From an uncultured Nitrososphaerota archaeon (GTDB taxonomy: Archaea > Korarchaeota > Korarchaeia > Korarchaeales > Korarchaeaceae): a stretch of 32,000 nucleotides of DNA. Positions 12,424-30,082 of the stretch are shown piece by piece. The stretch covers positions 1 through 32,000 of the forward strand of contig CAYZRF010000009.1 of assembly GCA_964480775.1 (NCBI GenBank). The letters run 5' to 3'. Under the pieces are notes generated by a model. It had not been told where the DNA came from. It saw only the letters and a list, made by a program, of their open reading frames with translations, and made no database searches. A program made the translations under genes and the position numbers. Every line of letters starts with the position of its first letter. Position 1 is the stretch's first letter.

Positions 12424-14184
12424 TTAAATGATATCCCACTCTTTCAGGGTGTTGCTGAAGTGTTTTAGACCACGTTCAAAATACTCTTCTTCAAGGATAC
12501 CATGAGGTGTGGGAACCTCCAAGATCCTTCTTGGAGCCTTTAGTTCTGTTGGATCGAACCCCATTTGAATCTTAAGGGAATATCTCTGTTTGTATATGTC
12601 TCTTCCAAGTCTATGGAGTTCTTCAGGAGGAACTGGTATGCCTAAGGGGTCTAGTGCTTCCGACACCGTCTCGACATCGTATATGCCTCTCGCAAACAGA
12701 CAAATTACTAGGCTGTTGAGAACCATTCTCCAACTCTCCTCCTTGATCAATTTTTCGACTAGCTCTTCTGGAGGTGGAAGCTCACTGATTTTTTGATCAA
12801 GGGAGTATCCAGCATTGTCAAGATGACTATGCCTGCCTCCGACAAGAAAGCCGAGGTAAGCTGCGGGTCCTGTGTGATATCCGGGCATTTCATTCCCACC
12901 GAAGAAAAGTGCAAATTCCTCTCCTCCAAAACGTTTAGATGCATTCCTAACTCCTAAAGCCAACTCTCTATAGAACTCGTTTGGCTGTTCTACGACCATT
13001 TTTACGGCCTTAATATATGACTCATAGTTGCCCCATTTTAGTCTAAGGAGAGTTTTTCTCTCGGAAATCAGCCCCCTTTCAAGGGCTTCTGTAGCCCAAG
13101 CAAGGCAAACACCAGTGCTTATGGCGTCTAATCCAACTGACTCGACAAAATGCAGAAGCTTCAAGAAGTCCTCTCTATTTCCTATGCCTAACATGCTGCC
13201 CAGGGCGTATGCCAGCTCATAGTCATACGAGATGAATACAGTCTTGTAGAAGAAGGGTTCATGTGGGTAGGGTTCCCTTAACGCTGCAAGATGAATGCAC
13301 GCAACTGGGCATCCTGAACAAGCAATTCTTCTTCCTAAAACCTTTGAAGCCATCTCTTCTCCGCTTATGTTCTCAGCCTGCTCAAATCTGCCTGATTTAA
13401 GGTTCATAGTTGGTAAGGCACCAAGCTCATTTAACGGCAAGACATTCATCGTGGTTCCTAGTTCGTGGTACTTTTTCATCAACCCAGATCTAACGGCTTT
13501 CTCGAAGATCTTATCGTAAACTTTCCTGTAAGCAACCTTATCTTCTACCTTTAAGGCCTTCCTTCCCGAGATAACGATGGCCTTTAGTTTTTTAGAACCA
13601 AACACGGCTCCCAAGCCTAGTCTTCCGAAATGTCTGAAAGATTCTACCATTACTGATGCGTACCTAACCAGCTTTTCTCCTGCGGGACCTATCCTAAGAA
13701 TGCTTCTGTAACCCGCACTTGGCTCCCTTTCAGCAATCACTCTTCCAACTGTAAAACTGCTTGTCATTCCCCACAATGCACTTGCGTCCCTGAAGTGAAC
13801 CCTGTCCTCGTGAATTGCTAAGTATATGGGAGTTTCGCTAGCCCCTCTTATTACAATAGCCATGTAGCCTGCAAGCTTGATCGAAACGCTACTCCTTCCA
13901 CCCGCATACGATTCGCCTAAGTTCCCAGTAAGAGGACTTTTGAAGAGGGCAACAGTCTTGGATCCAAGAGGATACGCTGCATTGAAGGGGCCTACTGCGA
14001 GTATTATGGAATTCTCTGGACTCAAAGGATCGACTGACGTCATGTTCTCTTCTTTCAGTAGTTGAATTCCTAAACCGATCCCTCCAAGCCATTCCTCTAC
14101 TAAGTCATCTCTCTCTTCGACCCAGCTCGTTCTTCTGTTTAGATCTATGTACAGAACTTTTGAGAAAGGCTTCGGTTCGTACAT
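12424..14184 (-). CDS. Aldehyde:ferredoxin oxidoreductase family enzyme (tungstopterin, AOR/FOR-like)
   Basis: 586-aa ORF. The N-terminal AFOR_N pattern is LGGIGLGIQLL...DPLSPENSIILAVGPF...FKSPLTG...GG. The [4Fe-4S] motif is ACSGCPVACIH and the pterin-binding block is GLDAISTGVCLAWA. The ATG follows the upstream stop directly (TGAATG) and is preceded by GAGGAGGTGA. Confidence 0.92.
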   Translation of the reverse strand: MYEPKPFSKVLYIDLNRRTSWVEERDDLVEEWLGGIGLGIQLLKEENMTSVDPLSPENSIILAVGPFNAAYPLGSKTVALFKSPLTGNLGESYAGGRSSVSIKLAGYMAIVIRGASETPIYLAIHEDRVHFRDASALWGMTSSFTVGRVIAEREPSAGYRSILRIGPAGEKLVRYASVMVESFRHFGRLGLGAVFGSKKLKAIVISGRKALKVEDKVAYRKVYDKIFEKAVRSGLMKKYHELGTTMNVLPLNELGALPTMNLKSGRFEQAENISGEEMASKVLGRRIACSGCPVACIHLAALREPYPHEPFFYKTVFISYDYELAYALGSMLGIGNREDFLKLLHFVESVGLDAISTGVCLAWATEALERGLISERKTLLRLKWGNYESYIKAVKMVVEQPNEFYRELALGVRNASKRFGGEEFALFFGGNEMPGYHTGPAAYLGFLVGGRHSHLDNAGYSLDQKISELPPPEELVEKLIKEESWRMVLNSLVICLFARGIYDVETVSEALDPLGIPVPPEELHRLGRDIYKQRYSLKIQMGFDPTELKAPRRILEVPTPHGILEEEYFERGLKHFSNTLKEWDII

Positions 14185-14619
14185 TCATCTCACCTCCTCA
14201 AGAGCTATCACATTGTAAGGGCAGTAGTTCGCGCAATAGCCACAGTACACGCAGATTATGGGCTTGTTTACCTCTTCATCCCAGAAGATTGCTCCAAAGG
14301 GACATGCTTCAACACAATAACCGCAAGCTATGCATTTTTCGGGCTTAAGGATGACGCCTCCCCCTTTTCTAGGCACGAGAGCATCTTCAGGACATACTTT
14401 TGCACATGGAGGCTCTGAGCAGGCTCTGCAAACCACTACGATAAAGCCTTTCTCCATGCCTCCGGCACTTTTAACGTGTATCGCTGACTTTCCATAACCA
14501 ACTTCAGCGAATCTTCTAGTGCAGGCAAGCATACATGAAGCGCAGCCTACGCATAAATCAGAATCTAGAACTGAGAGGCGTTTCGTCAAATATATCCCAA
14601 GTTTGATGTAAATCCTCAC
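14185..14619 (-). CDS. Polyferredoxin-type iron-sulfur protein (four 4Fe-4S cluster motifs), putative electron-transfer subunit of the AOR-family enzyme
   Basis: 144-aa ORF with Cys clusters CVGCASCMLAC, CRACSEPPCAKVCP, CIACGYCVEACP and CVYCGYCANYCP. Its stop abuts the AOR start. The track start is GTG at 14619; the TTG 10 codons downstream (MTKRLSVLD...) is an alternative. Confidence 0.88.
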   Translation of the reverse strand: MRIYIKLGIYLTKRLSVLDSDLCVGCASCMLACTRRFAEVGYGKSAIHVKSAGGMEKGFIVVVCRACSEPPCAKVCPEDALVPRKGGGVILKPEKCIACGYCVEACPFGAIFWDEEVNKPIICVYCGYCANYCPYNVIALEEVR

Positions 14620-15578: not shown

Positions 15579-16553
15579 CTAGAAAGACCTCGCTGCTTTC
15601 ATAAACGCGTGTATATTCTCCAGAGGTGCAAAATAGGGGACATCGCATCCTGTGCTTACTATTAAGTTTCTGAAATCAGACATTCGTTTCAACATGTCTC
15701 CAACTTCCGTCTCTACCACGCCTTGTGGTCTTGTAGCCAACTTCATAGGAGAGTAATTTCCGAACAGAATTACAGCTTCAGGAACTTTTTCGGCAGCAAC
15801 TCTAAGATCTATATTGTCATCAAAGCTCAGAATGTGCGCTCCTGTCTCTACCATATCTAAAAGCAGGTGATTTGCCCTGCCACATATGTGTAGAGCCCAA
15901 GTGGGCCCTACTTTCTCGATTATCCTCGAAATGTAGGGCTTGGAGAACCTTCTGAAGTCTTCATTTGAGATGGAACTTGACATGGGTTCTGCCAAGACCA
16001 AAAGGTCTGTGATGGGAGCTAGTTCCCTTGCATAGCTCAGAATAACATCTGTTGAAAAGGACATGATTTCATCCAAGAGATCGGGTTTTTTCCTAACCAT
16101 TCTCATCAATCTACCGAATCCAACAAGCTGGCCAGCAAGGGTAAAAGGTCCTGACACGTAGAACCCGACAAACGCGTTTCTTCTAAGTTTTTGCATTAGT
16201 TCAGCTGTTCTAATCATGAGAGGGAGCCTTCCGCTAGTTTTCGGATTGGGAACCTCTAATCCCTCAAGATCGGCGCTTGACTCTAGCTTCAAGTGCTCGA
16301 CCACAGTAGGGGCGCTGTTTTCCTTCATGGAAACTTTTACGCCAACTGATTCGGCTTCTACAGTTAGGTCCATGAGTGGAAATACTATATCAAGACCGAA
16401 TTCCTCAAAAGAAGCTTTCATAAGCTTCATATGGAGCTCTGGCTCTCCAAGACATTCGTTTGCCTTTCCATTTATTAACTTAAGGCTTGGATAAGCTACC
16501 AGCGGTGCTACTAACAACTTCTCGCCCGATAGGACCCGATCTACTATATCCAT
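15579..16553 (-). CDS. URO-D-family methylcobamide methyltransferase (MtaA/MtbA-like MT2)
   Basis: 324-aa ORF. It has the MtaA-like block FPLMDLTVEAESVGV and zinc ligands H222-x-C224 (ALHICGR) and C303 (STGCDVP). The ATG is preceded by CAGGAGGAGG, 20 nt after the upstream gene's stop. Confidence 0.82.
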   Translation of the reverse strand: MDIVDRVLSGEKLLVAPLVAYPSLKLINGKANECLGEPELHMKLMKASFEEFGLDIVFPLMDLTVEAESVGVKVSMKENSAPTVVEHLKLESSADLEGLEVPNPKTSGRLPLMIRTAELMQKLRRNAFVGFYVSGPFTLAGQLVGFGRLMRMVRKKPDLLDEIMSFSTDVILSYARELAPITDLLVLAEPMSSSISNEDFRRFSKPYISRIIEKVGPTWALHICGRANHLLLDMVETGAHILSFDDNIDLRVAAEKVPEAVILFGNYSPMKLATRPQGVVETEVGDMLKRMSDFRNLIVSTGCDVPYFAPLENIHAFMKAARSF

Positions 16554-16573
16554 GAAGCCTCCTCCTGATTAGA

Positions 16574-17953
16574 TTAAGGTTTACTTACGCCTAATTCCTC
16601 TAATTCCTTCCAAACCCTTTCATATATGGCGAGCCAGTCTGGAACTGGTTTAAGAGTTACCAGGTTAGTGAGCTCCTTAAAACTGCGTCCCTTTGGAGGA
16701 TCCCTTAACCTTCCCTCGTACTTTGGTAAGAGCTCCTTAACGACATAGTTAACATCGGAGAGCTTCATTCCGGCAGATGCTTTCAATATTTCTGCGCAGA
16801 ACTTATTCTCAAGCCCACTACAATAATTAGGATATTTACATGCAGCTGGTCTTGTTCCGATCACGATAGCAGCCCCAGATACTGCTTCGGCGAGGGAGAT
16901 GCAAGCTGTCTCATACAAGATCATATCAGTTCCTGGACCAGCCACCTGACTGGTTATTCCTAGAACCATTGAGCGGCTGTTTCTAGATTTGGCTTGATTA
17001 GCTACGCTCGTAGCCCAAAGAGCTTCCCTTCCGCAGTTTCCAAAGTATCTTCCATCTAATATTGTGCTCTCTATAACAGTTGGTTGCATTGATGCTGCCT
17101 GTAGGATGTGGGCTGCAATTGCGCCTAAGGCTGCCCCTTCAGGAGGGCCGAAATATCCACCTATAGTTGTCATGTGCCCTGCTTCAATTGAAGTACCTGT
17201 AATCAGGGCAACGGCTACTCTGTGCAATATCCTATGTGGTAGGGTGATGGGCTCAGGTATTAGACATATGGCAAGCGTGCACTCTGGCTCAAATCCCCCT
17301 GGTAGGAAACCTCCGAAGAAGCCATACTCTGTAGGTGCTCCTTCAACCCCAAACACAGGCATTCCAGGCCTTCCAGCCCTATGAAGGGCCTCTTTAACAA
17401 GCTTTGCCTCGTAAAATCCCGCCAGGGTCTCATAGGGCGTCCTTGATCTAACCTCCCTTCCGTGAAGCCTGTCTAGACAGGCACCTAGAAGCATGTCCAC
17501 AACCCTGTATTGGGCGATTGACTGACAGATTGGGACATAAAGCTCCTCTGAGACAGAGAGCCCTAGAGCAGACATGGCTGCTATAGGAGGACTCGGGTCC
17601 TCGGGCACCCTGACCTTGATAGTGATCCTATCCTTTCCCTTTCCCAATGAGACCTCGGATACTGCATTTTTTAGCGCTTCCTCTATCTCCTCTTCGGTGA
17701 ACTTGACAATTCTCTCAGTCTCAGGGCAGAACATTCCCAGCTCAACCGCAAGAGAGAAACCTGCCTCCCAGAACTCATCAGCTAAACTGAGATCCATGTT
17801 TATGGGATTGTTTGGATCGAACGTCCTCTCTAACCCGTGATCCTTTAATACCCTCATGGTTGTTCTGGGAACTAACTTGTAGTCCCACTCCTTTCTTGAG
17901 ATGGGAGGTCCTATTAGGGTCCTGTCCATAACCTCTAACAGCTTCGATACCAT
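16574..17953 (-). CDS. MtmB-family (monomethylamine methyltransferase-like) protein lacking pyrrolysine; putative substrate:corrinoid methyltransferase (MT1)
   Basis: The ORF is open from GTG at 17971 (465 aa). ATG at 17953 (459 aa) is the likelier start, with GGAGGTGA 8 nt upstream inside the end of the corrinoid-protein gene. Blocks match recalled M. barkeri MtmB: KEWDYKLVP / DDWDLMKIP, RIVKFTEEEI / RIVKYTEDEI, PYETLA / PYEVLA, AGRPGMPVFG / AGRPGMGV(Pyl)G, AGPGTDMILYE / AGPCTEMCLLE, GRSFKE...LEELGV / GKTFQE...LEDLGL. There is no in-frame TAG. Confidence 0.8.
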   Translation of the reverse strand: MVSKLLEVMDRTLIGPPISRKEWDYKLVPRTTMRVLKDHGLERTFDPNNPINMDLSLADEFWEAGFSLAVELGMFCPETERIVKFTEEEIEEALKNAVSEVSLGKGKDRITIKVRVPEDPSPPIAAMSALGLSVSEELYVPICQSIAQYRVVDMLLGACLDRLHGREVRSRTPYETLAGFYEAKLVKEALHRAGRPGMPVFGVEGAPTEYGFFGGFLPGGFEPECTLAICLIPEPITLPHRILHRVAVALITGTSIEAGHMTTIGGYFGPPEGAALGAIAAHILQAASMQPTVIESTILDGRYFGNCGREALWATSVANQAKSRNSRSMVLGITSQVAGPGTDMILYETACISLAEAVSGAAIVIGTRPAACKYPNYCSGLENKFCAEILKASAGMKLSDVNYVVKELLPKYEGRLRDPPKGRSFKELTNLVTLKPVPDWLAIYERVWKELEELGVSKP

Positions 17954-17961
17954 TGAATTGG

Positions 17962-18651
17962 TCACCTCCACTCCCCAACTAGAACGGGCTTCTCAACCTC
18001 CTTTCCTCTTTCCTTCAATAGGTTACAGAGCTTTACAGCACCTTCCGCGTCCTTAGCCCATCCATCTGCCCCTATCTCCTTAGCCCACTCTGGATAGACT
18101 GCTGCTCCACCGACTATGACGTAATATTTGTCTCTGATTCCCATGTCCACTAGTCTCTGAATTACATCCCTCATGTAAAACATGGAAGGGCTCAATAGAC
18201 ACGAAATCGCAATGAAATCAGCCTCCGCCCTCTCAGCTTCCTCCACAAACTTCCTAGGTTCAACGTCAGATCCAAGGTCGAATACCTCATAGCCATTTGC
18301 CCTAAGCAAGGATGCTACTATGTTCTTCCCAATGTCGTGGATATCCCCGTAAATCGTCCCTATGACAACTTTTCCTTTCCTGAATTCCTGAGCTCTTTCA
18401 CTTAACTTTGGAATTATGATGTTTAAGGCTGCATAAGCTGTATCTGCTGCTAATACCAAATCAGGTAGGAATAGCTCTAACTTCTCGTATTTCTCCCCAA
18501 CTGTATCAAGGCCCTTCTTTAATCCCTCATTTATTATCTCTAGCGGGTCTATTCCTGCTTCAAGCGCTCTTTTAGTTGCTTCTTTTATGCCTTCTTCATC
18601 ACCATTAACAACCAAGTCTTTTAATCGATCTAGCAGTTCCTGCTTTCCCAT
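17962..18651 (-). CDS. Corrinoid (cobalamin-binding) protein of methyltransferase systems (MtmC/MtbC/MtaC-like)
   Basis: 229-aa ORF with ATG start. It has an N-terminal helical B12-binding_2 cap and a Rossmann-like domain carrying the D-x-H-x-x-G motif (GDIHDIGKN: D103, H105, G108), followed by the SCLLS and VIVGGAA blocks. Confidence 0.92.
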   Translation of the reverse strand: MGKQELLDRLKDLVVNGDEEGIKEATKRALEAGIDPLEIINEGLKKGLDTVGEKYEKLELFLPDLVLAADTAYAALNIIIPKLSERAQEFRKGKVVIGTIYGDIHDIGKNIVASLLRANGYEVFDLGSDVEPRKFVEEAERAEADFIAISCLLSPSMFYMRDVIQRLVDMGIRDKYYVIVGGAAVYPEWAKEIGADGWAKDAEGAVKLCNLLKERGKEVEKPVLVGEWR

Positions 18652-18670: not shown

Positions 18671-18684
18671 AAAAAATAAAAATA
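18671..18684 (-). promoter_or_regulatory. Candidate TATA box for the corrinoid methyltransferase operon
   Basis: On the reverse strand, TATTTTTATTTTTT is centred about 26 nt upstream of the corrinoid-protein ATG (18651). It lies in the 86-nt spacer after the Yip1-like gene. Confidence 0.35.
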
Positions 18685-18737: not shown

Positions 18738-19409
18738 TTAGATAGTTGGAAGGTAAATGGACCCTATCAGATAGATTAATGTGGGTATTGCGACAATAAA
18801 AGTCGCTTTATAGTAAGATAGATTGTGTTCTTCCTTAACAGCTAGGACAGAGAGAGCCAGAAACCAGATTAACATTACCAAACCGAAGATCCTGTTTATG
18901 GCCATGCCTACCTCGGTTGGCTTAGTAGCCATCAAGTTCTTTAAGAACTCAGCTTTTTCAGCAGAACTCATACTTTCAATAGGGATATCAGGAATTTTTG
19001 GAGAATACAGAGCCATAGCTAGCAAATTTGATGCTGAAGAGAAAATTTGGGGGGTGCGACACCAACCAATAAGTTCTAAAAGCTTTTCAAATGTACCTGA
19101 TCCCTTTATAGCCTTAGCAATTAGGTGAAAAACTCCAGAGATTACGAACCAAGCTGTAAATGAGAAAATAAGGGTTCCATACACAAGTCGGATTCCAGAA
19201 AAGCCCTCTAATCCAACTTCGCTTGGATCAATTTGCATTATATCGAGAATTTTCATAACAGAGATGAAGGTTGCCAGCCCAGTCAGCAGACCTTGAGATA
19301 GAATTATGACAAATGGCCCCAGGAGAGAGAGTTTCCCTTCCTTCATTTCCTTCAAAGTTGGTACAGGTCTTAGGATGATGCCCTTGATTTTCACCAAGAT
19401 CCTCAGCAT
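18738..19409 (-). CDS. Yip1-domain-like membrane protein
   Basis: 223-aa ORF. A short soluble N-terminus (ILRPVPTLKEM) is followed by five hydrophobic helices, which is Yip1-family-like topology. No catalytic motif recognised. Confidence 0.5.
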   Translation of the reverse strand: MLRILVKIKGIILRPVPTLKEMKEGKLSLLGPFVIILSQGLLTGLATFISVMKILDIMQIDPSEVGLEGFSGIRLVYGTLIFSFTAWFVISGVFHLIAKAIKGSGTFEKLLELIGWCRTPQIFSSASNLLAMALYSPKIPDIPIESMSSAEKAEFLKNLMATKPTEVGMAINRIFGLVMLIWFLALSVLAVKEEHNLSYYKATFIVAIPTLIYLIGSIYLPTI

Positions 19410-19510
19410 CTCTCATAGTGAGTGAGGGGTGCTATTAATGGTTGCTCTTCCAGACTCGTGAGGTGATAAATGTTTATTCTGATCAAAGCTGTCATTGAGA
19501 ACTCGTTAGG

Positions 19511-21514
19511 TTACGTTTGGTAAGGAGATTTTGAGGGTTTTTTGTTGTATGTTCTAAGTTCGATTGCAGTTGGTATTGAAAAGACAAAAGCTACCAAAGC
19601 CAGCCATCCAGAGATGTTTGATTCAACAATCTCTGCATTGAGAATTTTTTCCCACGAAATCTCATTTATTTGGCCGTCTTTCCCTATTTTGATCGTTGCT
19701 ACATTCTCATAAACTCTCTCTTGCCAAGTTCCCAAATGATACAACCAGATTTTGAGGGAAATTCCTCCCTCTGTTATCCCGCTGTGACGCATAACCTCCT
19801 CTAAACTCTCTACATAAATGTTTGAAACTATCTGATCAGATTCCACCTCCGATTCTCCTGAGGAAATTTCAACCACGTCTACGCTCAAAACCCAACGGAC
19901 TTTGATCTCATGGGCTTCATCTCGCTGTTTAACCCAAATCTCAATGCTTGAAGGCCTTCCAACTACCCTCAAATTTGAGGGCTCAGTCCTATGACAGCCG
20001 CAGGAATATTGAGGAAACTCCACGAAAGTTCCGTCCGGCCATCTAACAACCACTTGAGCTTTCCAGCTTGGAATTGAGAGAGAAAACCAAAGTATGGACA
20101 TACAAGTTAAGGCAAAGAGAATGATCGCTAGATAACGCTTGCCTTTTGACCATATAGCTGCTGATACTAAGACAAATGGGAAGCAAAAGAAGGCCTTTAG
20201 AGGATCCGATCTCGCCAAACAAAGCGAGGCTATTGCTCCCATCGAAAATATTAAGGTGAGACGGGAATTGAATGACCTAACTTTTTCTAAATCCAAGAAC
20301 GGAATAATTACTCCTGCCGCTCCTAGAGAAGCTCTAATCAGCACAGGAGTGTCGTAACTAGTTGCTAAGAAATATGTCCCCAGAGACAATAGCAAGATGC
20401 CTGATATCAGGTCAATAATAGTTACCTTTGTTCCTATCCATCTCTTCATTGTTCTTGACTTTAATCCTGCCCAAACGCTAAGTAATATGGCAATTAAAGG
20501 CGAGATGAATACAGAGTTGTAAAGAATGAGTGCTAGAAAGGCTCTAGTCTTATTAATGCCGACTAAGAATGAGGAAGCAAGAAGATAAGGTCCCATGGAG
20601 CAAGGAAGTAATGTAAAGCTAACCAAGGCTCCTAAGGTAATTGCCTCAACGGAGCTTGCAGAACCCTCAAAGACCTCAAATCTTCTAATAGTGATTTTTC
20701 TCAGAGGCTTAGGCAAAGGAGCCCTATGAATCCCTGATTGAAAGTTTCTCAACTCGAAAACGCCTAGAGCTATGAGGGCAGCACTGAAGAGGGGGATGAG
20801 GGTCCTCAGAAGGGAGGCAATGGTCAGGAGCCCCAGACCCAGAAGGAAGTAACATAGATAAACTGTGGCGATAAAGGCAACACCTGACCTAAGCGCTCTT
20901 CTCCTTCCACCAGAAGCCATAGAGAGGACCAAAAGGGTAGCAAATACCACGAAAGTGCAGGGGTTCACTGAATCCGCAGCCGCTAAAATAAAGAACTCTT
21001 TAAGCTCAAATTGAATTGAAGATGGCTTTGATTTGAAAATTTCCTCTAATCTCTTAACTTCTTCTCCTTCTAGATATCTTAGCTCATGTTCTTTGTAAGA
21101 AACTAACACAGATCCAGGACTTATCCTTCCTTCTAGTGAACTTAGGAATTCTTGGTCATGATAACCAGCCAAGATTGCCACAAGACTGTCCTGAGAAAAG
21201 ACTACAACTAAAGGAGCTGCTCGAACCCCTTGAGGAAAGGCAAGTTCATAGATCTCATCTACTATGGCGGCTATTTCAGCTCCTTCTGGACCAGATAACT
21301 CATAGAAAACAATTGATTCATTTCCGAATAGTTCTGATATGGTTTTAAGCTCCGACCCGCACTCAGAGCATCCAATTGTTCCGTATACAACAAAAGTCAA
21401 ATTAGGCTGTGCATAAATGGAAGCCAGTTGTGTTGAAAAAACCATGGCTATTAGCAAAGCAACTAAGATCTTCATCAAGATTAAGCTTGCGATCCTTCTT
21501 TTTTTGCCTTTCAA
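19511..21514 (-). CDS. Fusion protein: signal anchor + thioredoxin-like CxxC domain + CcdA/DsbD-type thiol:disulfide transporter core + extra TM helices + C-terminal extracytoplasmic domain
   Basis: 667-aa ORF. C49-S-E-C52 sits in a Trx-like context (VVYGTIGCSECG). The DsbD/CcdA signature cysteines are in TM helices: DSVNPC186TF and LLPC305SMGP. Additional helices follow, then a ~150-aa beta-rich segment with a CGC motif and a final TM anchor. Confidence 0.7.
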   Translation of the reverse strand: MKGKKRRIASLILMKILVALLIAMVFSTQLASIYAQPNLTFVVYGTIGCSECGSELKTISELFGNESIVFYELSGPEGAEIAAIVDEIYELAFPQGVRAAPLVVVFSQDSLVAILAGYHDQEFLSSLEGRISPGSVLVSYKEHELRYLEGEEVKRLEEIFKSKPSSIQFELKEFFILAAADSVNPCTFVVFATLLVLSMASGGRRRALRSGVAFIATVYLCYFLLGLGLLTIASLLRTLIPLFSAALIALGVFELRNFQSGIHRAPLPKPLRKITIRRFEVFEGSASSVEAITLGALVSFTLLPCSMGPYLLASSFLVGINKTRAFLALILYNSVFISPLIAILLSVWAGLKSRTMKRWIGTKVTIIDLISGILLLSLGTYFLATSYDTPVLIRASLGAAGVIIPFLDLEKVRSFNSRLTLIFSMGAIASLCLARSDPLKAFFCFPFVLVSAAIWSKGKRYLAIILFALTCMSILWFSLSIPSWKAQVVVRWPDGTFVEFPQYSCGCHRTEPSNLRVVGRPSSIEIWVKQRDEAHEIKVRWVLSVDVVEISSGESEVESDQIVSNIYVESLEEVMRHSGITEGGISLKIWLYHLGTWQERVYENVATIKIGKDGQINEISWEKILNAEIVESNISGWLALVAFVFSIPTAIELRTYNKKPSKSPYQT

Positions 21515-21637: not shown

Positions 21638-22456
21638 ATGTCTAGATTTGAAAGCTTTTACAAGCTATTTAACACAAAAAAGCCAATCATAGGAATGGTC
21701 CATCTGCCGCCTCTCCCAGGCTCACCCCGATACAACGGGGATATGGAAGGTTTGATCAAAAGGGCCGTCTCAGATGCTAGGGCTCTTGAGGATGGGGGGG
21801 TAAATGGACTGATTGTGGAGAACTATGGCGATAAGCCTTTTAGAAGAGATAAAGTCGGACCCGAAACAGTTTCTGCAATGACTTTAGTTCTGAAGAGCGT
21901 GTTAGAGGCAACATCTCTGCCAGTCGGAGTTAATGTGCTTAGAAGCGATTGTGTCTCTGCTCTAGCTATAGCTTCAGTAACTGGAGCAAAGTTCATCAGG
22001 TGTAATGTTTTTACCGATACCTTGGTCACGGATCAAGGCATTATTCAGCCCTGTGCATGGGAAGTCTTGAACTTAAGGGCGTTTCTCAAATCTAAGGTCA
22101 TGGTGTTCGCTGATGTTCTTAGCAAACATGCTAGGCCCTTAGTCCACCTGACAATAGAGGAATCAGCAAGAGCTGCCGCCTATAGAGGAATGGCCGACGC
22201 CATAATAGTAACTGGAACGGAGACCGGGGTTAGTCCGGATCCTGAGAGGGTTAAGAGGATTAAGGAGGCTGTTTCGGATGTTCCGCTCCTAATTGGAAGT
22301 GGTCTCAACCCAGATAACGCTGTAACACTGTTAAAACATGCAGATGGGGCTATCGTTGGCACATATTTCAAGGAAAAAGGTTTTGTAGAAAATAAAGTCG
22401 ACACGGAGAGGGTAAGAACCCTCATAAAAACCATAAAGATGCTCGATCATAGGTGA
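21638..22456 (+). CDS. BtpA/SgcQ-family TIM-barrel protein
   Basis: 272-aa ORF. The ATG is preceded by GGGAGGA 7 nt upstream. The family N-terminal block is KPIIGMVHLPPLPGSPRY; later blocks are VENYGD.PF and GSGLN..N......ADGAIVGT.FK. Confidence 0.85.
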   Translation: MSRFESFYKLFNTKKPIIGMVHLPPLPGSPRYNGDMEGLIKRAVSDARALEDGGVNGLIVENYGDKPFRRDKVGPETVSAMTLVLKSVLEATSLPVGVNVLRSDCVSALAIASVTGAKFIRCNVFTDTLVTDQGIIQPCAWEVLNLRAFLKSKVMVFADVLSKHARPLVHLTIEESARAAAYRGMADAIIVTGTETGVSPDPERVKRIKEAVSDVPLLIGSGLNPDNAVTLLKHADGAIVGTYFKEKGFVENKVDTERVRTLIKTIKMLDHR

Positions 22457-22460
22457 GTGA

Positions 22461-23816
22461 ATGGATCTCCTGAATGGAGACTGGTGGAAAGCTGGCGCTG
22501 GCCCTGGAGGTTTGTGTCTAAATGGTCTAAAGGCCATCATTACTATGGAACCCTCAAATCCGATTATTTGGAATGGTCACATTTGTGTCGAGGATGGATT
22601 GATAAAGAGCATAGGTGTTGGTAAGGGACCAAGGGCAGAGGTAGAAATAGAGACTCATGGGAAGGTAGCTATTCCTGGCATGATAGATCTCCACTCCCAT
22701 TCTACTCAATCTTTTCTAAGGGGTGTATTCGATGAGATATGCCTCATGGAGTGGTTAAACGAAACCGATGTATCCTATTCGAGAGCAAAAAGAGAATTGC
22801 TTGAAATATCATCTACGATCTCTTTTCTCGAAAGATTGAAGGGAGGAGTCACCACAGTAGTGGATATGGAGCCCTTTCCCGAGATAATTGCTCGAGCTTC
22901 TGAAAAGATTGGTTTGAGGACCGAAATCTCCGTTCTGATGGCTGATACCCCAGAACTTCCTAGTCAAGAGGTTTCATCGCTAGAACAGGAGTTGAAAAAG
23001 GCTAAAAGTGCTATACAAAAGTTTCAGAGAAATCAAAAGTTATGGGTATCTCTAGCTCCCGTAGGTTTTCCTGCAGCCTCAAATGAACTTTTTAAGAGAT
23101 CTGCAGAACTCGCAAAGGAAAAAGGACTAAGGCTCCATACTCATGTTGCTGAGAGCAGAATAAACGCAAACCTATGCAAGAGAAGAAATAGGAGGAGCGA
23201 AATTGAGCTTCTAGAGGATCTTGGATTCTTAGGTCCAAAAACTCAACTTGCCCATGCTATCTGGATAAGCGAGACGGATATCGAGACTCTTTCAAAATAT
23301 AGAACTGCAGTCGTTCATTGCCCTTCAAGCAACCTGAAGCTCGCAGCAGGCGTGTCGAAAGTACCTGAGATGATAAAAATGGGAGTTAAAGTTGGACTTG
23401 GGCTTGATGGAGCAGCTAGCAACTCCAGCCAAGATATGTTCCAAGAGATGAGAATCGCATCAACATTACATAAAGGGGTTAAAGGAAATCCAAAAGCCGT
23501 GAAAGCCGAAGAAGCACTTAATATGACGACTGTACAAGCTGCAAAAATACTTAGACTTGAAAAAACGTTAGGAAAGATATCTCCTGGCTATTGGGCTGAT
23601 TTTTCTCTAATTGATGTGTCACAACCCAGGTACTTACCAATAGAGGCCATAAGGTCGCACATAGTTTATTCAGCCCAAGCTTCCGATGTTTTCGGTGTAA
23701 TAGTTGGGGGAGAAGTTCTTGTTTGGGAAAGAACGCACACCAGTTTTGACGAAACTTCCCTCTTAAAGAGAGCAGGTGAACTTTTCTCAGAGTTCCTGAA
23801 CGGTGTGCTCCTTTGA
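22461..23816 (+). CDS. Metal-dependent amidohydrolase of the MtaD/SsnA/chlorohydrolase (nucleobase/nucleoside deaminase-like) group
   Basis: 451-aa ORF. Blocks present: KAIITMEP...VEDGLIKSIG, IPGMIDLHSHSTQSFLRG (HxH), LHTHVAES, VVHCPSSNLKLAAG, GLGLDGAASN. The ATG lies 4 nt after the BtpA stop. TTG at 22512 is an alternative start. Confidence 0.85.
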   Translation: MDLLNGDWWKAGAGPGGLCLNGLKAIITMEPSNPIIWNGHICVEDGLIKSIGVGKGPRAEVEIETHGKVAIPGMIDLHSHSTQSFLRGVFDEICLMEWLNETDVSYSRAKRELLEISSTISFLERLKGGVTTVVDMEPFPEIIARASEKIGLRTEISVLMADTPELPSQEVSSLEQELKKAKSAIQKFQRNQKLWVSLAPVGFPAASNELFKRSAELAKEKGLRLHTHVAESRINANLCKRRNRRSEIELLEDLGFLGPKTQLAHAIWISETDIETLSKYRTAVVHCPSSNLKLAAGVSKVPEMIKMGVKVGLGLDGAASNSSQDMFQEMRIASTLHKGVKGNPKAVKAEEALNMTTVQAAKILRLEKTLGKISPGYWADFSLIDVSQPRYLPIEAIRSHIVYSAQASDVFGVIVGGEVLVWERTHTSFDETSLLKRAGELFSEFLNGVLL

Positions 23817-24925
23817 TCTCAAGGAAAAAGTTTACGTCACTGTACATTTCGACTTTTCTATTGACAACAGGCGTGGGAGCAACTATTCCAGCCCTAGCTC
23901 AAAAGGTCTACCTAATATCTTCATCAGACGAACTTGTCTCGCTAGTGATTGGAACTTGGGGTCTCTCTTACACAATATTGAGCGCTCTTTCTGGTTATTT
24001 AATTAACTTTTTTGGAAGAAAAGGGGTTTCTTTCCTTGGTTTGCTAGGTGCGTCTGTTTCTGGTATTATAATGGAGTTATCTAACTCTGTATCTGCGCTT
24101 GCCTCATCAAGATTCCTTACAGGGGCTTCTGAAGCTCTTGTCCTTAATTCTTTCATCACTATAACCTCTTTTGAATCCTTAGAAAAGAGAGAAGGCTGTC
24201 TTGGTCTACTGTATGCTTCTATGGGTCTTGGATTGTTCTCGGGACCTTTTTTCTACTCTTACTTCTTGGGATCAGATCCCAAAAAAGGCTTTTTCTTGTT
24301 GATTCTTCTTCCTCTTATGTCAATACTCCTTCTTCCATCATATCAAGAGGGATTTTCAATGGATAGGTCGTCTCACCCTAACTTAAGAAAAGTAGCTATC
24401 CCTTTAACTGTGTCTCTACTAATAGGGGCATTGGAAGGATATTTTCAAGGGTCGGGAGTGAGCCTTGTTAGAGCTTGGGGGCATGATCCCTCGGATTTTG
24501 GAAAGATTTTGTCCCTCTATTTTGCGTTTAGCATTGTCGTCCAAGGCACGATGCCCTTCTTGACCAAAGTTTTTAGGGCGGATAGCTGGGCAGTTAGCTT
24601 TTCTATATGGACAATCTTCACATCGAGCCTGCTCATCGAGTTAAGGTCCAAAAAATTTCCTTTCTTATTCTCTGGCTTATTTGGGGCTTCTATTGCCGTT
24701 TGTAGCGTAGCTTTAACTTCATTATTATCTGAATTAACTACAGAGAAGGAAAGAGCATTTGCTATAGGGATGTCGAGTTCAACTTATTCACTGGGCTACT
24801 TTATTTCTCCTATTTTCGTCTTTATATTCAAAAATCAGGTTTTTGGAGTGTTCTTTATGTCTATACTACTTTTTCTCTTAGCAGCAATCATTAGATTTCC
24901 GTTAAGACCTTCTAACGAGATTTAA
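23813..24925 (+). CDS. MFS-type transporter
   Basis: 370-aa ORF with about 11-12 hydrophobic helices and a motif-A-like block, SGYLINFFGRKGV. The TTG start overlaps the amidohydrolase stop (TTGA). Its 3' end overlaps the convergent ecfA gene by 14 nt. Confidence 0.65.
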   Translation: MISRKKFTSLYISTFLLTTGVGATIPALAQKVYLISSSDELVSLVIGTWGLSYTILSALSGYLINFFGRKGVSFLGLLGASVSGIIMELSNSVSALASSRFLTGASEALVLNSFITITSFESLEKREGCLGLLYASMGLGLFSGPFFYSYFLGSDPKKGFFLLILLPLMSILLLPSYQEGFSMDRSSHPNLRKVAIPLTVSLLIGALEGYFQGSGVSLVRAWGHDPSDFGKILSLYFAFSIVVQGTMPFLTKVFRADSWAVSFSIWTIFTSSLLIELRSKKFPFLFSGLFGASIAVCSVALTSLLSELTTEKERAFAIGMSSSTYSLGYFISPIFVFIFKNQVFGVFFMSILLFLLAAIIRFPLRPSNEI

Positions 24926-26590: not shown

Positions 26591-26613
26591 TCTAATCGCC
26601 TCTTCCCATAAAA

Positions 26614-27564: not shown

Positions 27565-27566
27565 AT

Positions 27567-28415: not shown

Positions 28416-28458
28416 CTACATCACCAAAAAAGAGGAAAGGGGGAATTTATATAAACAA

Positions 28459-29049: not shown

Positions 29050-29153
29050 ACCGCATCATCTTCCTCGTTTCGTTAGTTGGCTAACCTGTCGCCTGATATA
29101 ATATTAAGATTTCCCCTTTTTCACCAAAAAAGAAATGTAGGTGTGGTAAAAGG

Positions 29154-29936: not shown

Positions 29937-29954
29937 AGATTCTGAAGGTTCATG

Positions 29955-29967
29955 TAATTCTAATAAA
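29955..29967 (-). promoter_or_regulatory. Candidate TATA box for the second nucleoside phosphorylase gene
   Basis: On the reverse strand, TTTATTAGAATTA spans -31 to -19 relative to the ATG at 29936. The spacing matches the other first-gene A/T boxes in the window. Confidence 0.3.
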
Positions 29968-30082
29968 CTTGTTTGAGATTCCAGATTATGAAATCTCTTT
30001 TCACGAAAAACTATAAACACCTCCTTGTTGCACTCACTCTCCACCCCTCAGTTTCAAAGCATGATGGTGCGTCTTCGCATTT

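What the first reader, a model, noticed from the sequence alone, without database searches (positions are those of the whole stretch)
15579..18651. Three-gene corrinoid methyltransferase operon built around a pyrrolysine-free MtmB-family protein
Seen: three tightly packed reverse-strand genes form one apparent transcription unit. They are a corrinoid protein (18651-17962), a 459/465-aa protein (17953 or 17971 to 16574) and a URO-D-family protein (16553-15579). Spacers are 8 nt and 20 nt, GGAGG boxes precede genes 2 and 3, and an A/T box lies about 26 nt upstream of gene 1. Gene 1 has the cobalamin D-x-H-x-x-G motif. Gene 2 looks MttB-like at first glance. From memory, however, it matches the conserved blocks of Methanosarcina monomethylamine methyltransferase MtmB (RIVKFTEEEI/RIVKYTEDEI; AGRPGMPVFG/AGRPGMGV-Pyl-G; AGPGTDM/AGPCTEM; GRSFKE..LEELGV/GKTFQE..LEDLGL), and it has no in-frame TAG. 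Gene 3 keeps the MtaA/MtbA zinc ligands. Established: MT1 + corrinoid protein + MT2 is the architecture of methylotrophic C1 systems. Pyrrolysine is the residue proposed to activate methylamine in MtmB. Pyl-free members of the unrelated MttB family turned out to be quaternary-amine demethylases. Inference: this is an MtmB-derived demethylase system acting on a substrate other than monomethylamine, or activating it differently. I know of no biochemically characterised Pyl-free MtmB homologue.
Basis: partly seen in the sequence, partly recalled or inferred. Interest (0 to 1): 0.85.

Follow-up and report, generated by a model that had tools for sequence, protein, structure and literature searches.

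The report
Pyrrolysine-free MtmB corrinoid methyltransferase operon
An uncultured hydrothermal-sediment archaeon carries a vitamin-B12-dependent methyl-transfer operon whose first enzyme has the monomethylamine methyltransferase fold but lacks pyrrolysine, and gene neighbourhoods across many phyla suggest it takes methyl groups from imported purine-like compounds rather than from methylamine.

Summary
Three co-oriented, tightly packed genes encode a corrinoid protein (17962-18651), a Pyl-free MtmB-family protein (16574-17953) and an MtaA-like zinc methyltransferase (15579-16553). Gene 2 matches Pfam MtmB over its full length (269 bits). Its model superposes on M. barkeri MtmB (TM 0.95) and not on MttB (about 0.5). 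Phe replaces Pyl202.

A Pyl-free MtmB homologue has now been characterised: MtqB, acting on tetramethylammonium and choline (2026). By indirect evidence, our protein lies in a different deep superclade, about 27% identical to MtmB1. The three-gene operon is conserved only in this Korarchaeota-labelled lineage and one Chloroflexia locus. The corrinoid-MtmB pair is conserved in 70 of 81 loci.

New result: in 48 of 81 loci from archaea and bacteria, the pair sits beside AtzT-like purine-base-type ABC importers, purine/triazine-type amidohydrolases, xanthine-dehydrogenase-type hydroxylases or adenine deaminases, often with RamA. Two Pyl-proximal control homologues instead sit beside PylC, an ammonium transporter or TAG-split MtbB.

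The best reading is a three-component demethylase for an imported N-methylated heteroaromatic compound. This is inferred, not shown. It is a new variant of a known kind, with moderate-to-high interest.

The parts
17962..18651 (-). Gene 1: corrinoid (B12-binding) protein, 229 aa, with D103-x-H105-x-x-G108
   Evidence: Pfam B12-binding_2 plus B12-binding. The closest solved relatives are 1Y80, MttC 7XCN and MtmC 3EZX. NCBIfam pyl_corrinoid scores 204.7 bits, just under its cut-off of 215.3.
16574..17953 (-). Gene 2: Pyl-free MtmB-family methyltransferase (MT1), 459 aa; alternative starts GTG 17965 and GTG 17971; Phe at the position of Pyl202
   Evidence: Pfam MtmB 268.8 bits over the full length, and the only family hit. 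phmmer to 1L2Q/1NTH gives E 1e-54. The AF2 model has pLDDT 96.4. Foldseek gives TM 0.95/0.96 and rmsd 1.5 A to 1NTH.
15579..16553 (-). Gene 3: MtaA/MtbA-like URO-D-family methyltransferase (putative MT2), 324 aa, with the triad His222/Cys224/Cys303; ends in TAG
   Evidence: Pfam URO-D 192.9 bits. NCBIfam MtaA/CmuA 149.6 bits, below its cut-off of 235. MtaA 4AY7 E 7e-29 with the LHICG and GC motifs aligned. The triad is conserved in all relatives checked.
17962..17969 (-). GGAGGTGA Shine-Dalgarno-like box overlapping the end of gene 1, 8 nt before the ATG of gene 2 (suggests translational coupling)
   Evidence: Read directly from the sequence.
16558..16565 (-). GGAGGAGG Shine-Dalgarno-like box before gene 3
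   Evidence: Read directly from the sequence.
18671..18684 (-). A/T-rich box (ATTTTTATTTTTT), candidate archaeal TATA element centred about 25 nt upstream of the gene 1 ATG
   Evidence: Read directly from the sequence. Promoter function was not tested.
18738..21514 (-). Co-oriented upstream genes conserved with the operon in this lineage: a Yip1-domain membrane protein (18738-19409) and a 667-aa membrane protein with no Pfam hit (19511-21514)
   Evidence: Pfam. The same order occurs in L001 and L084. A link to the methyltransferase system is not shown.
21638..24925 (+). Divergent unit BtpA / amidohydrolase (22461-23816) / MFS transporter. The amidohydrolase is of the type that recurs next to corrinoid-MtmB pairs elsewhere.
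   Evidence: Pfam. NCBIfam best matches are 5'-deoxyadenosine deaminase, N-ethylammeline chlorohydrolase and 8-oxoguanine deaminase, all below cut-off. PDB best matches are MTA/SAH deaminase 4F0R, 8-oxoguanine deaminase/AtzB 7WW2 and guanine deaminase. The unit is conserved in L084.
24912..31021 (-). Context: nucleoside-salvage-type cluster with two ABC ATPases, an inosine-uridine nucleoside hydrolase (26614-27564), an EcfT/CbiQ component, a 196-aa unknown protein, a PNP-family phosphorylase and a PfkB kinase
   Evidence: Pfam. The association with the operon is inferred only.
12424..14619 (-). Context: aldehyde:ferredoxin oxidoreductase plus a 4Fe-4S ferredoxin. AOR recurs near corrinoid-MtmB pairs in 10 of 83 loci.
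   Evidence: Pfam; census.

Best explanation
The three genes encode a corrinoid-dependent, three-component methyl-transfer (demethylase) system in a Korarchaeota-labelled Thermoproteota archaeon.

Proposed mechanism.
1. Gene 2 is a TIM-barrel enzyme with the MtmB fold but Phe in place of pyrrolysine. It acts as MT1. It binds a methylated donor and lets the Co(I) form of the gene 1 corrinoid protein remove the methyl group.
2. Gene 3 is an MtaA-like enzyme whose conserved His/Cys/Cys triad matches the motifs that, from memory, bind zinc in MtaA. It acts as MT2 and passes the methyl group from methyl-Co(III) to an acceptor, most likely a thiol.
3. A RamA-type activase encoded elsewhere in the genome would rescue oxidised Co(II).

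Shown here: the family, fold and motifs of all three proteins; the absence of Pyl; the tight operon structure; conservation of the corrinoid-MT1 pair.

Inferred: the donor is not free monomethylamine. It is probably an imported N-methylated compound that needs no Pyl activation. The best candidate is a planar N-methylated N-heteroaromatic compound, such as a methylated purine base or nucleoside (for example 7-methylguanine, 1-methyladenine or N6-methyladenine) or a pyridinium betaine. I put about 0.3 on that specific substrate class. The confidence given for this entry applies to the general mechanism.
For: Family, fold and motifs.

Pyl-free status. There is no in-frame TAG and Phe sits at position 202. 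TAG is an ordinary stop in 6 of 29 window ORFs, including gene 3. PMC12180501 reports under 5% TAG stops in Pyl-using methanogens and 17-18% in non-users. The Pyl-aligned column is unconserved across the superclade (F, H, W, Q, G, E, T, I).

Conservation of the pair. A corrinoid gene lies at a median distance of 4 nt from the MtmB-like gene in 70 of 81 loci. The full operon is kept in L001 and L084/L085. A similar corrinoid/MtmB/MT2/RamA operon occurs in Chloroflexia L048. MT2 relatives at 47-48% identity sit next to Bmp-ABC, RamA and corrinoid genes.

Substrate inference.
- 48 of 81 loci carry at least one purine or N-heterocycle marker. That is 29 of 46 archaeal and 19 of 35 bacterial loci, and 28 of 42 loci with full flanks.
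- The associated Bmp binding proteins are closest to AtzT (binds guanine at 110 nM, also adenine and 2-hydroxyatrazine) and to adenine-bound 3S99 (PMC6834077). They keep the aromatic sandwich.
- The amidohydrolases are closest to MTA/SAH deaminase, 8-oxoguanine deaminase/AtzB and guanine deaminase.
- XDH-type Mo hydroxylases occur in 10 loci and adenine-deaminase-like genes in 4.
- Some loci are tight operons, for example corrinoid/MtmB/Bmp/ABC/permease/permease, with RamA further downstream, in Verrucomicrobiota (L041).
- Two control Pyl-free homologues from the Pyl-proximal superclade instead neighbour PylC plus an ammonium transporter, or a TAG-split MtbB.
- The only characterised Pyl-free MtmB uses permanently cationic quaternary amines (PMC13044021).
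Against: - No biochemical data exist for this superclade.
- In the window itself no Bmp transporter and no RamA lie within 32 kb. The amidohydrolase is 3.8 kb away, in a divergent unit, and the nucleoside genes are 6 kb or more away, so the window's own context is weaker than that of its relatives.
- Guilt by association cannot separate direct demethylation of a methylated purine from use of a breakdown product.
- The background frequency of Bmp and amidohydrolase genes in these genomes was not measured.
- Many loci are related, so the counts are not independent. Single-linkage clustering at 55% identity gives 18 clusters, of which 10 have Bmp.
- The acceptor of MT2 is unknown, and URO-D-family enzymes can also act as MT1 (MtsA; O-demethylase MT I, from memory).
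- 14 of the 42 loci with full flanks show none of the markers.
Confidence: 0.6

Rival explanations
1. It is a true monomethylamine:corrinoid methyltransferase that works without pyrrolysine. The methylamine could be supplied by the neighbouring AtzB/deaminase-type amidohydrolase, which would release it from N-methylamino-heterocycles such as N6-methyladenine.
For: The protein has the MtmB family and fold, and MAG studies annotate such genes as mtmB for MMA use (PMC10321748). The Glu aligned to MtmB1 Glu205 is retained in the window subclade. The recurrent amidohydrolases resemble enzymes that cleave alkylamines from rings, namely the hydroxydechloroatrazine ethylaminohydrolase of 7WW2. A Lys-for-Pyl MtmB next to PylC and an ammonium transporter exists in Methanomassiliicoccaceae, so Pyl-free forms in methylamine contexts do occur.
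Against: Pyl is thought to be needed to activate methylamine. No conserved substitute occupies that column. No ammonium or methylamine transporter or pyl gene is near the pair in this superclade, in contrast to the two controls. Docking of MMA into the one characterised Pyl-free member was unfavourable, at -0.2 kcal/mol (PMC13044021).
Confidence: 0.12
2. It is an MtqB-like quaternary-amine methyltransferase acting on tetramethylammonium, choline or a similar aliphatic quaternary amine.
For: MtqB is the only Pyl-free MtmB homologue with a demonstrated function, and it is also encoded next to its corrinoid protein (PMC13044021). Pyl-free MttB relatives all use quaternary amines (established knowledge).
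Against: The window protein is only 27% identical to MtmB1 and 21-29% identical to all Pyl-proximal Pyl-free proteins, the region where the paper places the MtqB clade. It falls in the other deep superclade. No BCCT or choline-type transporter is nearby, and the context is purine-like. The MtqB sequence itself could not be obtained, so this placement is indirect.
Confidence: 0.1
3. Gene 3 is not the MT2 of this system. Either it is adjacent by chance, or it is a second substrate-activating methyltransferase (MtsA-like for methylthiols, or O-demethylase-MT1-like) that shares the corrinoid protein. The real MT2 would then be encoded elsewhere.
For: An adjacent URO-D gene is rare: MT2 lies within 6 kb in only 5 of 81 other loci. 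In the closest genome relatives an MtaB-like MT1 sits at that position. Gene 3 scores below the NCBIfam cut-offs for MtaA, MtbA and CmuA.
Against: A 20-nt spacer with a strong SD box links gene 3 to gene 2. The arrangement is kept at 81% identity. An independent corrinoid/MtmB/MT2/RamA operon occurs in Chloroflexia (L048), and MT2 relatives at 47-48% identity lie beside Bmp, RamA and corrinoid clusters. The MtaA-type His/Cys/Cys triad is conserved.
Confidence: 0.12
4. The transporter association reflects cofactor supply rather than substrate import. The Bmp or ECF systems would import corrinoid lower-ligand bases (purines, benzimidazoles), cobalt or cobalamin for the corrinoid protein, so they would say nothing about the methyl donor.
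For: AtzT-like binding proteins bind purine bases, and some corrinoids carry purine lower ligands (established knowledge). ECF modules with CbiQ/EcfT sit beside the pair in 4-6 loci and also in the window.
Against: The co-occurring catabolic enzymes (deaminase-type amidohydrolases, XDH-type hydroxylases, a kynurenine-formamidase-type cyclase, a creatininase-family hydrolase) and MarR regulators in the same operons look like a degradation pathway. The polar ligand contacts differ from those AtzT uses for guanine.
Confidence: 0.06

Closest known systems
MtmB1, monomethylamine:corrinoid methyltransferase of Methanosarcina barkeri (PDB 1NTH, 1L2Q)
   Same: Same Pfam family (PF05369), length and fold (TM 0.95, rmsd 1.5 A). 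The GRPGM loop, the GP-T-M motif and the N- and C-terminal blocks are shared. Both are encoded next to a cognate corrinoid protein.
   Different: Only 27% identical. Pyl202 is replaced by Phe with no in-frame UAG. The protein lies in a separate deep superclade. Its genomic context is purine-type, not methylamine/Pyl-type. The host is a non-Methanosarcina Thermoproteota archaeon that uses TAG as an ordinary stop.
MtqB/MtqC/MtqA, the tetramethylammonium/choline:CoM methyl-transfer system of Methanococcoides methylutens Q3c/NaT1 (PMC13044021)
   Same: A Pyl-free MtmB-family MT1 is paired with an adjacent corrinoid protein, and an MtaA/MtbA-type MT2 completes the system. It shows that Pyl-free MtmB homologues can be active demethylases of pre-activated, cationic N-methyl donors.
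   Different: The paper reports that MtqB branches near the Pyl-MtmBs, whereas the window protein is in the other superclade (indirect test). The MtqA gene (ACT9XH_RS07150) carries a locus tag distant from mtqBC (RS04770/RS04775), whereas here MT2 is in the operon. Neighbours and host differ.
Pyl-free MttB-superfamily methyltransferases (MtgB, MtpB, MtcB, MtyB)
   Same: Same logic: loss of Pyl accompanies a switch to other N-methyl donors, within a three-component corrinoid system.
   Different: A different fold family. There is no Pfam MttB hit, and Foldseek gives a TM-score of only about 0.5 to MttB/MtgB structures 7XCL, 7XCN, 9YCE and 2QNE.
MtaA, methylcobalamin:CoM methyltransferase of Methanosarcina mazei (PDB 4AY7)
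   Same: Gene 3 shares the URO-D fold family and the LHICG and GC motifs.
   Different: Similarity is low (E 7e-29). Gene 3 scores below the NCBIfam equivalog and subfamily cut-offs. The acceptor is unknown, and it is not known whether the host makes coenzyme M.
Ga0180325_111810, a Pyl-free MtmB-superfamily protein of 'Ca. Formimonas warabiya' DCMF (PMC9768040)
   Same: Another Pyl-free MtmB-superfamily protein that is clearly expressed. It was the most up-regulated protein on dichloromethane, and its role appears to lie outside MMA metabolism.
   Different: It is bacterial. Its function is also unknown, and its relationship to the window clade was not tested.

Membership tests
Pfam PF05369 MtmB family / MtmB fold | Full-length profile-HMM match above the gathering score, with no better-scoring family | tested here: met
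   268.8 bits against a cut-off of 25, profile positions 4-449 of 450, and the only family hit.
Pfam PF05369 MtmB family / MtmB fold | Three-dimensional fold of MtmB | tested here: met
   AF2 model pLDDT 96.4. TM 0.95/0.96 and rmsd 1.5 A to 1NTH/1L2Q, with the next-best fold (MttB) at about 0.5.
Monomethylamine methyltransferase MtmB sensu stricto | UAG-encoded pyrrolysine at the active site (Pyl202 of MtmB1) | tested here: not met
   No in-frame stop. Phe aligns to Pyl202.
Monomethylamine methyltransferase MtmB sensu stricto | Host encodes pylTSBCD and avoids TAG as a stop codon | tested here: inconclusive
   No pyl gene in the 32-kb window. TAG ends 6 of 29 ORFs.
Monomethylamine methyltransferase MtmB sensu stricto | MMA-dependent methylation of the cognate corrinoid protein | not testable with these tools
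   Requires an enzyme assay.
MtqB (tetramethylammonium/choline:corrinoid methyltransferase) | Pyl-free MtmB homologue encoded beside its corrinoid protein | tested here: met
   PMC13044021.
MtqB (tetramethylammonium/choline:corrinoid methyltransferase) | Clusters with ACT9XH_RS04775 in the clade that branches near the Pyl-MtmBs | tested here: inconclusive
   The MtqB sequence was not obtainable. Indirectly, the window protein lies in the other superclade, 27% identical to MtmB1 and 21-29% identical to the Pyl-proximal Pyl-free proteins. This leans towards 'not met'.
MtqB (tetramethylammonium/choline:corrinoid methyltransferase) | QMA- or choline-dependent corrinoid methylation | not testable with these tools
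   Requires an enzyme assay.
Three-component corrinoid methyltransferase system (MT1 + CoP + MT2 + activase) | Corrinoid protein with B12-binding domains and the DxHxxG motif | tested here: met
Three-component corrinoid methyltransferase system (MT1 + CoP + MT2 + activase) | MT1 gene adjacent to and co-oriented with the corrinoid protein gene | tested here: met
   An 8-nt spacer with an SD box overlapping the stop codon. The pair is conserved in 70 of 81 loci.
Three-component corrinoid methyltransferase system (MT1 + CoP + MT2 + activase) | MT2 of the MtaA/MtbA (URO-D) type with an H-x-C...C zinc site | tested here: met
   Scores fall below the NCBIfam MtaA/CmuA cut-off, so the match is at family level only.
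Three-component corrinoid methyltransferase system (MT1 + CoP + MT2 + activase) | RamA-type reductive activase | tested here: inconclusive
   None in the window or in the flanks of L001 and L084. One is present beside homologous pairs in 18 of 83 loci.
MttB superfamily (Pyl-free quaternary-amine methyltransferases) | MttB-family profile match and fold | tested here: not met
   No Pfam MttB hit. TM about 0.5 with rmsd above 11 A to MttB and MtgB structures.

The most novel reading that the evidence does not exclude
The large, uncharacterised superclade of Pyl-free MtmB homologues to which this gene belongs consists of corrinoid-dependent demethylases of N-methylated purines or related N-heteroaromatic compounds. 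Examples are 7-methylguanine, 1-, 3- or N6-methyladenine or their nucleosides, and pyridinium betaines. The substrates would enter through AtzT-like purine-type ABC transporters. After demethylation they would be processed by deaminase-type amidohydrolases and XDH-type hydroxylases. This would give anaerobic archaea and bacteria (Korarchaeia, Caldarchaeales, Hadarchaeota, Bathyarchaeia, Chloroflexota, Verrucomicrobiota) a route to harvest C1 units from nucleic-acid modification debris. The many paralogues per genome (at least 11 in one Hadarchaeota MAG) would then correspond to different methylated bases.
Probability: 0.3. Interest if true: 0.85.

Novelty: new variant of a known kind. Interest (0 to 1): 0.6.

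Why it matters
Genes of this type are routinely annotated as "mtmB" in metagenome-assembled genomes of Bathyarchaeia and similar groups. They are then counted as evidence for monomethylamine use and for non-methanogenic methylotrophy in subsurface carbon budgets (PMC10321748).

This analysis shows that the clade lacks pyrrolysine, has no conserved residue in its place, and lives in a purine-type rather than a methylamine-type genomic context. Those metabolic inferences are therefore probably wrong for this clade.

What Pyl-free MtmB homologues do is an open question. One function was published in 2026, and the rest of a 1,061-sequence tree is unassigned. The conserved linkage to AtzT-like binding proteins, purine-type deaminases and Mo hydroxylases turns that question into a short list of testable substrates. 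If confirmed, it would reveal an unrecognised anaerobic sink for methylated nucleobases and a new source of C1 units in sediments and hot springs.

Tried and rejected
- MttB-like reading of gene 2: rejected. There is no Pfam hit, and the TM-score is about 0.5.
- Orthology to the characterised MtqB: I could not get the MtqB sequence. The paper's text holds no sequence, and a search seeded with MtmB1 returned unnamed candidates. Only an indirect test was possible, through the two-superclade tree.
- Suspicion that Lys at the Pyl site in Pyl-proximal homologues was a translated TAG: rejected. L089 has a real Lys codon.
- A genome survey with the 17-sequence alignment failed because no stretch was conserved enough. 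It succeeded with 9 sequences.
- NCBIfam has no model that hits gene 2.
- tRNA and Rfam scans of the window found nothing, so there is no tRNA-Pyl, riboswitch or known RNA element.
- Literature searches linking MtmB to nucleosides, or corrinoid methyltransferases to methylated nucleobases, found nothing relevant.
- The bacterial promoter/terminator scanner was not used, because the host is archaeal.
- A proper genomic background rate for Bmp and amidohydrolase genes could not be computed, because only the loci, not whole genomes, were available.
- Active-site geometry could not be examined, because model coordinates are not exposed by the tools.

Full report
OBSERVATION

Direct reading of the sequence confirms the junction details:
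- Gene 1 ends ...TGG AGG TGA at 17964-17962.
- The box GGAGGTGA (17969-17962) overlaps that end and lies 8 nt before the ATG at 17953.
- A 20-nt spacer holding GGAGGAGG (16565-16558) precedes the ATG of gene 3.
- An A/T run (about 18684-18671) is centred about 25 nt upstream of gene 1.

Homologue N-termini (MVSKLLEV... against MVLRLLDV...) favour the 17953 start. One gene caller chose GTG at 17965, which overlaps gene 1 by 4 nt. Gene 1 carries D103-I-H105-D-I-G108.

Pfam gives B12-binding_2 plus B12-binding for gene 1. It gives MtmB (PF05369) at 268.8 bits over profile positions 4-449 of 450, and nothing else, for gene 2. It gives URO-D at 192.9 bits for gene 3.

GENE 2 IS AN MtmB-FOLD PROTEIN WITHOUT PYRROLYSINE

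phmmer against the PDB finds M. barkeri MtmB1 (1L2Q/1NTH) at E = 1e-54 over residues 14-462. An AlphaFold2 model built on a 56-sequence alignment is confident (pLDDT 96.4, pTM 0.94). It superposes on 1NTH/1L2Q with TM 0.95/0.96 and rmsd 1.5 A over 453 columns at 27% identity. MttB and MtgB structures reach only a TM-score of about 0.5.

The ORF has no in-frame stop. TAG is an ordinary stop codon in 6 of 29 window ORFs, including gene 3. PMC12180501 reports that Pyl-using methanogens use TAG for under 5% of stops, against 17-18% in non-users. No pyl, mcr or ramA gene lies in the window, and there is no tRNA or Rfam hit.

GENES 1 AND 3

Gene 1 is closest to 1Y80, MttC (7XCN) and MtmC (3EZX). It scores just under the NCBIfam pyl_corrinoid cut-off, at 204.7 against 215.3 bits.

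Gene 3 is closest to MtaA (4AY7, E = 7e-29). LHICG and GC align to the motifs that, from memory, bind zinc in MtaA. His222, Cys224 and Cys303 are conserved in all relatives examined. It scores below the NCBIfam MtaA/CmuA/MtbA cut-offs, so it is MtaA-like at family level only. A zinc site of this kind typically activates a thiol (established for MtaA, MtbA and MetE-type enzymes). The acceptor here is inferred to be a thiol, but that is not shown.

SOURCE ORGANISM

Exact or near-identical proteins come from MAGs labelled "Candidatus Korarchaeota archaeon" or "Thermoproteota archaeon" (RLG47696 DRN92_02650, RLG46402 DRN90_06555 and others). An 81%-identity relative of gene 3 lies in Guaymas Basin hydrothermal metagenomes (L084/L085). 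A short-form XPF nuclease and an archaeal-type TIM in the window fit a Thermoproteota host.

WHAT IS ALREADY KNOWN

Kashyap et al. (Front Microbiol 2026, PMC13044021) showed by proteomics, N-terminal sequence identity to the lost strain NaT1 and enzyme assay that MtqB of Methanococcoides methylutens Q3c is a Pyl-free MtmB homologue. It demethylates tetramethylammonium and choline. They call it the first function for any non-Pyl MtmB. [quoted passage not shown]

A Pyl-free MtmB-superfamily protein was also the most up-regulated protein on dichloromethane in 'Ca. Formimonas warabiya' (PMC9768040). MAG surveys list such genes as mtmB for monomethylamine use without discussing Pyl (PMC10321748; PMC8065059).

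WHERE THE WINDOW PROTEIN SITS

An exhaustive HMMER search of 1.84 billion representatives finds a modest family: 829 clusters at E <= 1e-3 and 184 at E <= 1e-30. Word-indexed searches seeded with gene 2 and with MtmB1, followed by a neighbour-joining tree, show two deep superclades.
- The first holds MtmB1, the TAG-truncated Pyl forms and a set of full-length Pyl-free proteins that are 41-57% identical to MtmB1.
- The second holds the window protein. It is 27% identical to MtmB1 and 21-29% identical to all Pyl-proximal Pyl-free proteins.

The closest relatives of the window protein are at 98% (the same species) and 71-74% (P0002-P0004, metagenomic). Below that come genome relatives at 57-64%, from MAGs labelled Caldarchaeales, 'Ca. 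Terraquivivens', Methanomethylicia, Nitrososphaeria, Hadarchaeota and 'Ca. Hecatella' (Bathyarchaeia). Bathyarchaeia, Chloroflexota, Verrucomicrobiota, Actinomycetota and Bacillota follow at lower identity.

The Pyl-aligned column is not conserved in this superclade. It is F in the window and P0003, H in the 57-65% subclade (P0006, P0010, P0021, P0042), and W, Q, G, E, T or I elsewhere. I could not obtain the MtqB sequence, so non-membership of the MtqB clade rests on the paper's description plus this tree.

IS THE THREE-GENE OPERON CONSERVED?

Only locally. It is intact, with the same flanks, in the 98% contig L001 and in L084/L085. In 81 other loci the results are as follows:
- A corrinoid gene lies at a median distance of 4 nt from the MtmB-like gene in 70.
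- A URO-D gene lies within 6 kb in only 5.

One of those five is a Chloroflexia operon, corrinoid/MtmB/MT2/RamA (L048). Its MT2 is the most similar to gene 3 among the genome loci, at 181 bits.

In the closest genome relatives (L002-L014, L083) the layout differs. RamA is divergent. Corrinoid, MtmB-like and MtaB-like genes follow, the last scoring 544 bits to the NCBIfam MtaB model. A convergent Bmp-ABC transporter comes next.

MT2 relatives at 47-48% identity sit beside Bmp-ABC, RamA and corrinoid genes. One follows an adenine deaminase. The conserved unit is therefore the corrinoid-MT1 pair. The in-operon MT2 is a lineage feature, but this MT2 type is independently linked to the same wider system.

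A RECURRENT GENOMIC CONTEXT

A phmmer census of all ORFs in 83 loci found the following near the pair:
- Bmp-family (PF02608) binding proteins in 32 loci
- their CUT2-type permeases in 28
- a particular amidohydrolase type in 25
- RamA in 18
- AOR in 10
- ECF modules in 5-6

Later seeds added xanthine-dehydrogenase-type Mo hydroxylases in 10 loci and adenine-deaminase-like proteins in 4. In Chloroflexota there is also a kynurenine-formamidase-type 'cyclase' plus a MarR regulator, sitting between the MtmB-like gene and the amidohydrolase/Bmp genes.

Overall, 48 of 81 loci carry at least one of these markers: 29 of 46 archaeal, 19 of 35 bacterial, and 28 of 42 loci with at least 4 kb on both sides. 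Several are tight operons, for example Verrucomicrobiota L041: corrinoid, MtmB, Bmp, ABC, permease, permease, with RamA further downstream, and a divergent amidohydrolase.

The associated binding proteins from three very different hosts all match AtzT (6PI5) and 3S99 best. They match these better than the nucleoside binders PnrA/TmpC and BmpD. AtzT binds guanine (KD 110 nM), adenine and 2-hydroxyatrazine, and 3S99 holds adenine (PMC6834077).

Mapping AtzT's contact residues shows that the aromatic sandwich is retained. Tyr45 is Trp in 28 of 30 proteins, and Trp194 is kept in 27 of 30. The polar contacts change: Asn220 becomes Glu or Asp in 21 of 30, and Phe98 becomes Trp in 14 of 30. That suggests a planar aromatic ligand that is not plain guanine.

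The amidohydrolases, including the window's at 22461-23816, are closest to several enzymes, always below equivalog cut-offs:
- MTA/SAH deaminase
- 5'-deoxyadenosine deaminase
- 8-oxoguanine deaminase / hydroxydechloroatrazine ethylaminohydrolase
- atrazine chlorohydrolase
- guanine deaminase

As a control, two Pyl-free proteins from the other superclade sit in classical methylamine contexts. P0131 has a true Lys codon at the Pyl site and lies beside PylC, an ammonium transporter and a corrinoid protein. P0140 lies beside a TAG-split MtbB and a corrinoid protein. Neither has Bmp or amidohydrolase neighbours. That is only two controls.

Searches of the held library found no paper linking MtmB homologues to nucleosides or corrinoid methyltransferases to methylated nucleobases.

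THE WINDOW'S OWN CONTEXT

It is weaker than that of its relatives, but it points the same way. The operon, together with the upstream Yip1 gene and a 667-aa membrane-protein gene, is divergent from a BtpA/amidohydrolase/MFS unit (21638-24925). Further on lie ECF-type transporter genes with an embedded inosine-uridine nucleoside hydrolase, a PNP-family phosphorylase and a PfkB kinase (24912-31021). AOR plus a ferredoxin lie downstream (12424-14619). There is no Bmp transporter and no RamA within 32 kb. The 73% relative L081, by contrast, has the pair flanked on both sides by Bmp-ABC transporters, with AOR and amidohydrolases nearby.

MECHANISM

The shown elements establish a canonical MT1 / corrinoid protein / MT2 relay.

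The donor is inferred. Pyrrolysine is thought to activate methylamine by forming a charged adduct. The Pyl-free enzymes characterised so far (MtqB, and the Pyl-free MttB relatives MtgB, MtpB, MtcB and MtyB) all use donors whose nitrogen is already quaternary (established knowledge; PMC13044021).

Combining that chemical logic with the context, the most economical hypothesis is an imported N-methylated heteroaromatic compound. Several methylated purines (m7G, m1A, 3-methyladenine) and pyridinium betaines carry such a cationic N-methyl group. N6-methyladenine does not, but it could be handled through amidohydrolase-released methylamine, which is the main rival.

The large paralogue numbers fit a multi-substrate family. 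There are at least 11 genes in one Hadarchaeota MAG and at least 7 in 'Ca. Hecatella'.

I put about 0.6 on the general mechanism (a three-component demethylase whose donor is not free MMA). I put about 0.3 on the purine or N-heteroaromatic substrate class.

VERDICT

The system is a new variant of a known kind. Its architecture is standard, the Pyl-free MtmB class is already recognised and one member is characterised. This superclade is uncharacterised, is probably mis-annotated as monomethylamine-specific, and shows a cross-phylum genomic linkage to purine-type uptake and catabolism that I did not find described.

Interest is 0.6. It stays substantial because the context turns an open question into a specific experiment.

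Noticed in passing
window 24912-31021 (-): An ECF-type transporter operon (two ABC ATPases and EcfT/CbiQ) has an inosine-uridine nucleoside hydrolase gene embedded between the ATPase and T-component genes. A 196-aa protein with no Pfam hit follows (a possible S component), then a PNP-family phosphorylase and a PfkB kinase. It looks like a nucleoside uptake and salvage cluster.
   Followed up: partly
window 19511-21514 (-): A 667-aa multi-pass membrane protein with no Pfam hit and an N-terminal CSEC (CxxC-like) motif. Together with the Yip1 gene, it is conserved directly upstream of the operon in L001 and L084 (668-712 aa). Its function and any link to the methyltransferase system are unknown.
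   Followed up: no
L084 10077-10669 versus window 15497-15578: In the 81% relative, a VapBC-type toxin-antitoxin pair (PIN plus VapB) is inserted between the MT2 gene and the convergent TIM gene. The window has only an 82-nt intergenic gap there.
   Followed up: no
L089 3122-4510 (Methanomassiliicoccaceae MAG, GCA_009784745.1): A full-length MtmB homologue has a genuine Lys codon, not TAG, at the pyrrolysine position (GRPGMGI-K-G). It is encoded next to PylC, an ammonium transporter and a corrinoid protein. This is a Lys-for-Pyl variant in an organism that carries a pyrrolysine-biosynthesis gene. Several related sequences (P0125-P0133) share the Lys.
   Followed up: partly
L002-L014 and L083 (Caldarchaeales / 'Ca. 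Terraquivivens' / Methanomethylicia-labelled MAGs): A conserved cluster: divergent RamA, then one corrinoid protein followed by two different MT1-type genes (MtmB-like, then MtaB-like at 544 bits to the NCBIfam MtaB model), then a convergent Bmp-ABC transporter. Two methyl-donor enzymes appear to share one corrinoid protein.
   Followed up: partly
L009, L015, L016, L018, L019, L025, L026, L028 (one Hadarchaeota MAG, CAYUMT01); L010, L017, L022, L033, L059 ('Ca. Hecatella orcuttiae'): Strong paralogue expansion of Pyl-free MtmB homologues within single genomes: at least 11 and at least 7 genes, some in tandem. This recalls the MttB-superfamily expansions in quaternary-amine-using bacteria.
   Followed up: partly
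L048 2212-5089 and L069 2418-5205 (Chloroflexia MAGs); 10 loci in all: Xanthine-dehydrogenase/aldehyde-oxidase-type molybdenum hydroxylase genes lie directly upstream of the corrinoid-MtmB pair. L048 also has a creatininase-family hydrolase between RamA and the amidohydrolase.
   Followed up: partly
window 12424-14619 (-): The aldehyde:ferredoxin oxidoreductase gene directly abuts its upstream 4Fe-4S ferredoxin gene (14185/14184), and a GGAGGTGA box precedes the AOR start. AOR genes recur near corrinoid-MtmB pairs in 10 of 83 loci in both archaea and Chloroflexota. The reason is unknown.
   Followed up: no
A1/A2 alignments, window gene 2 residue W313: A Trp (ALWA motif) is invariant across the window's superclade but aligns to Met in MtmB1, and it is lost from the invariant list once Pyl-proximal sequences are added. 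It is a candidate superclade-specific active-site residue. It was not examined structurally.
   Followed up: no
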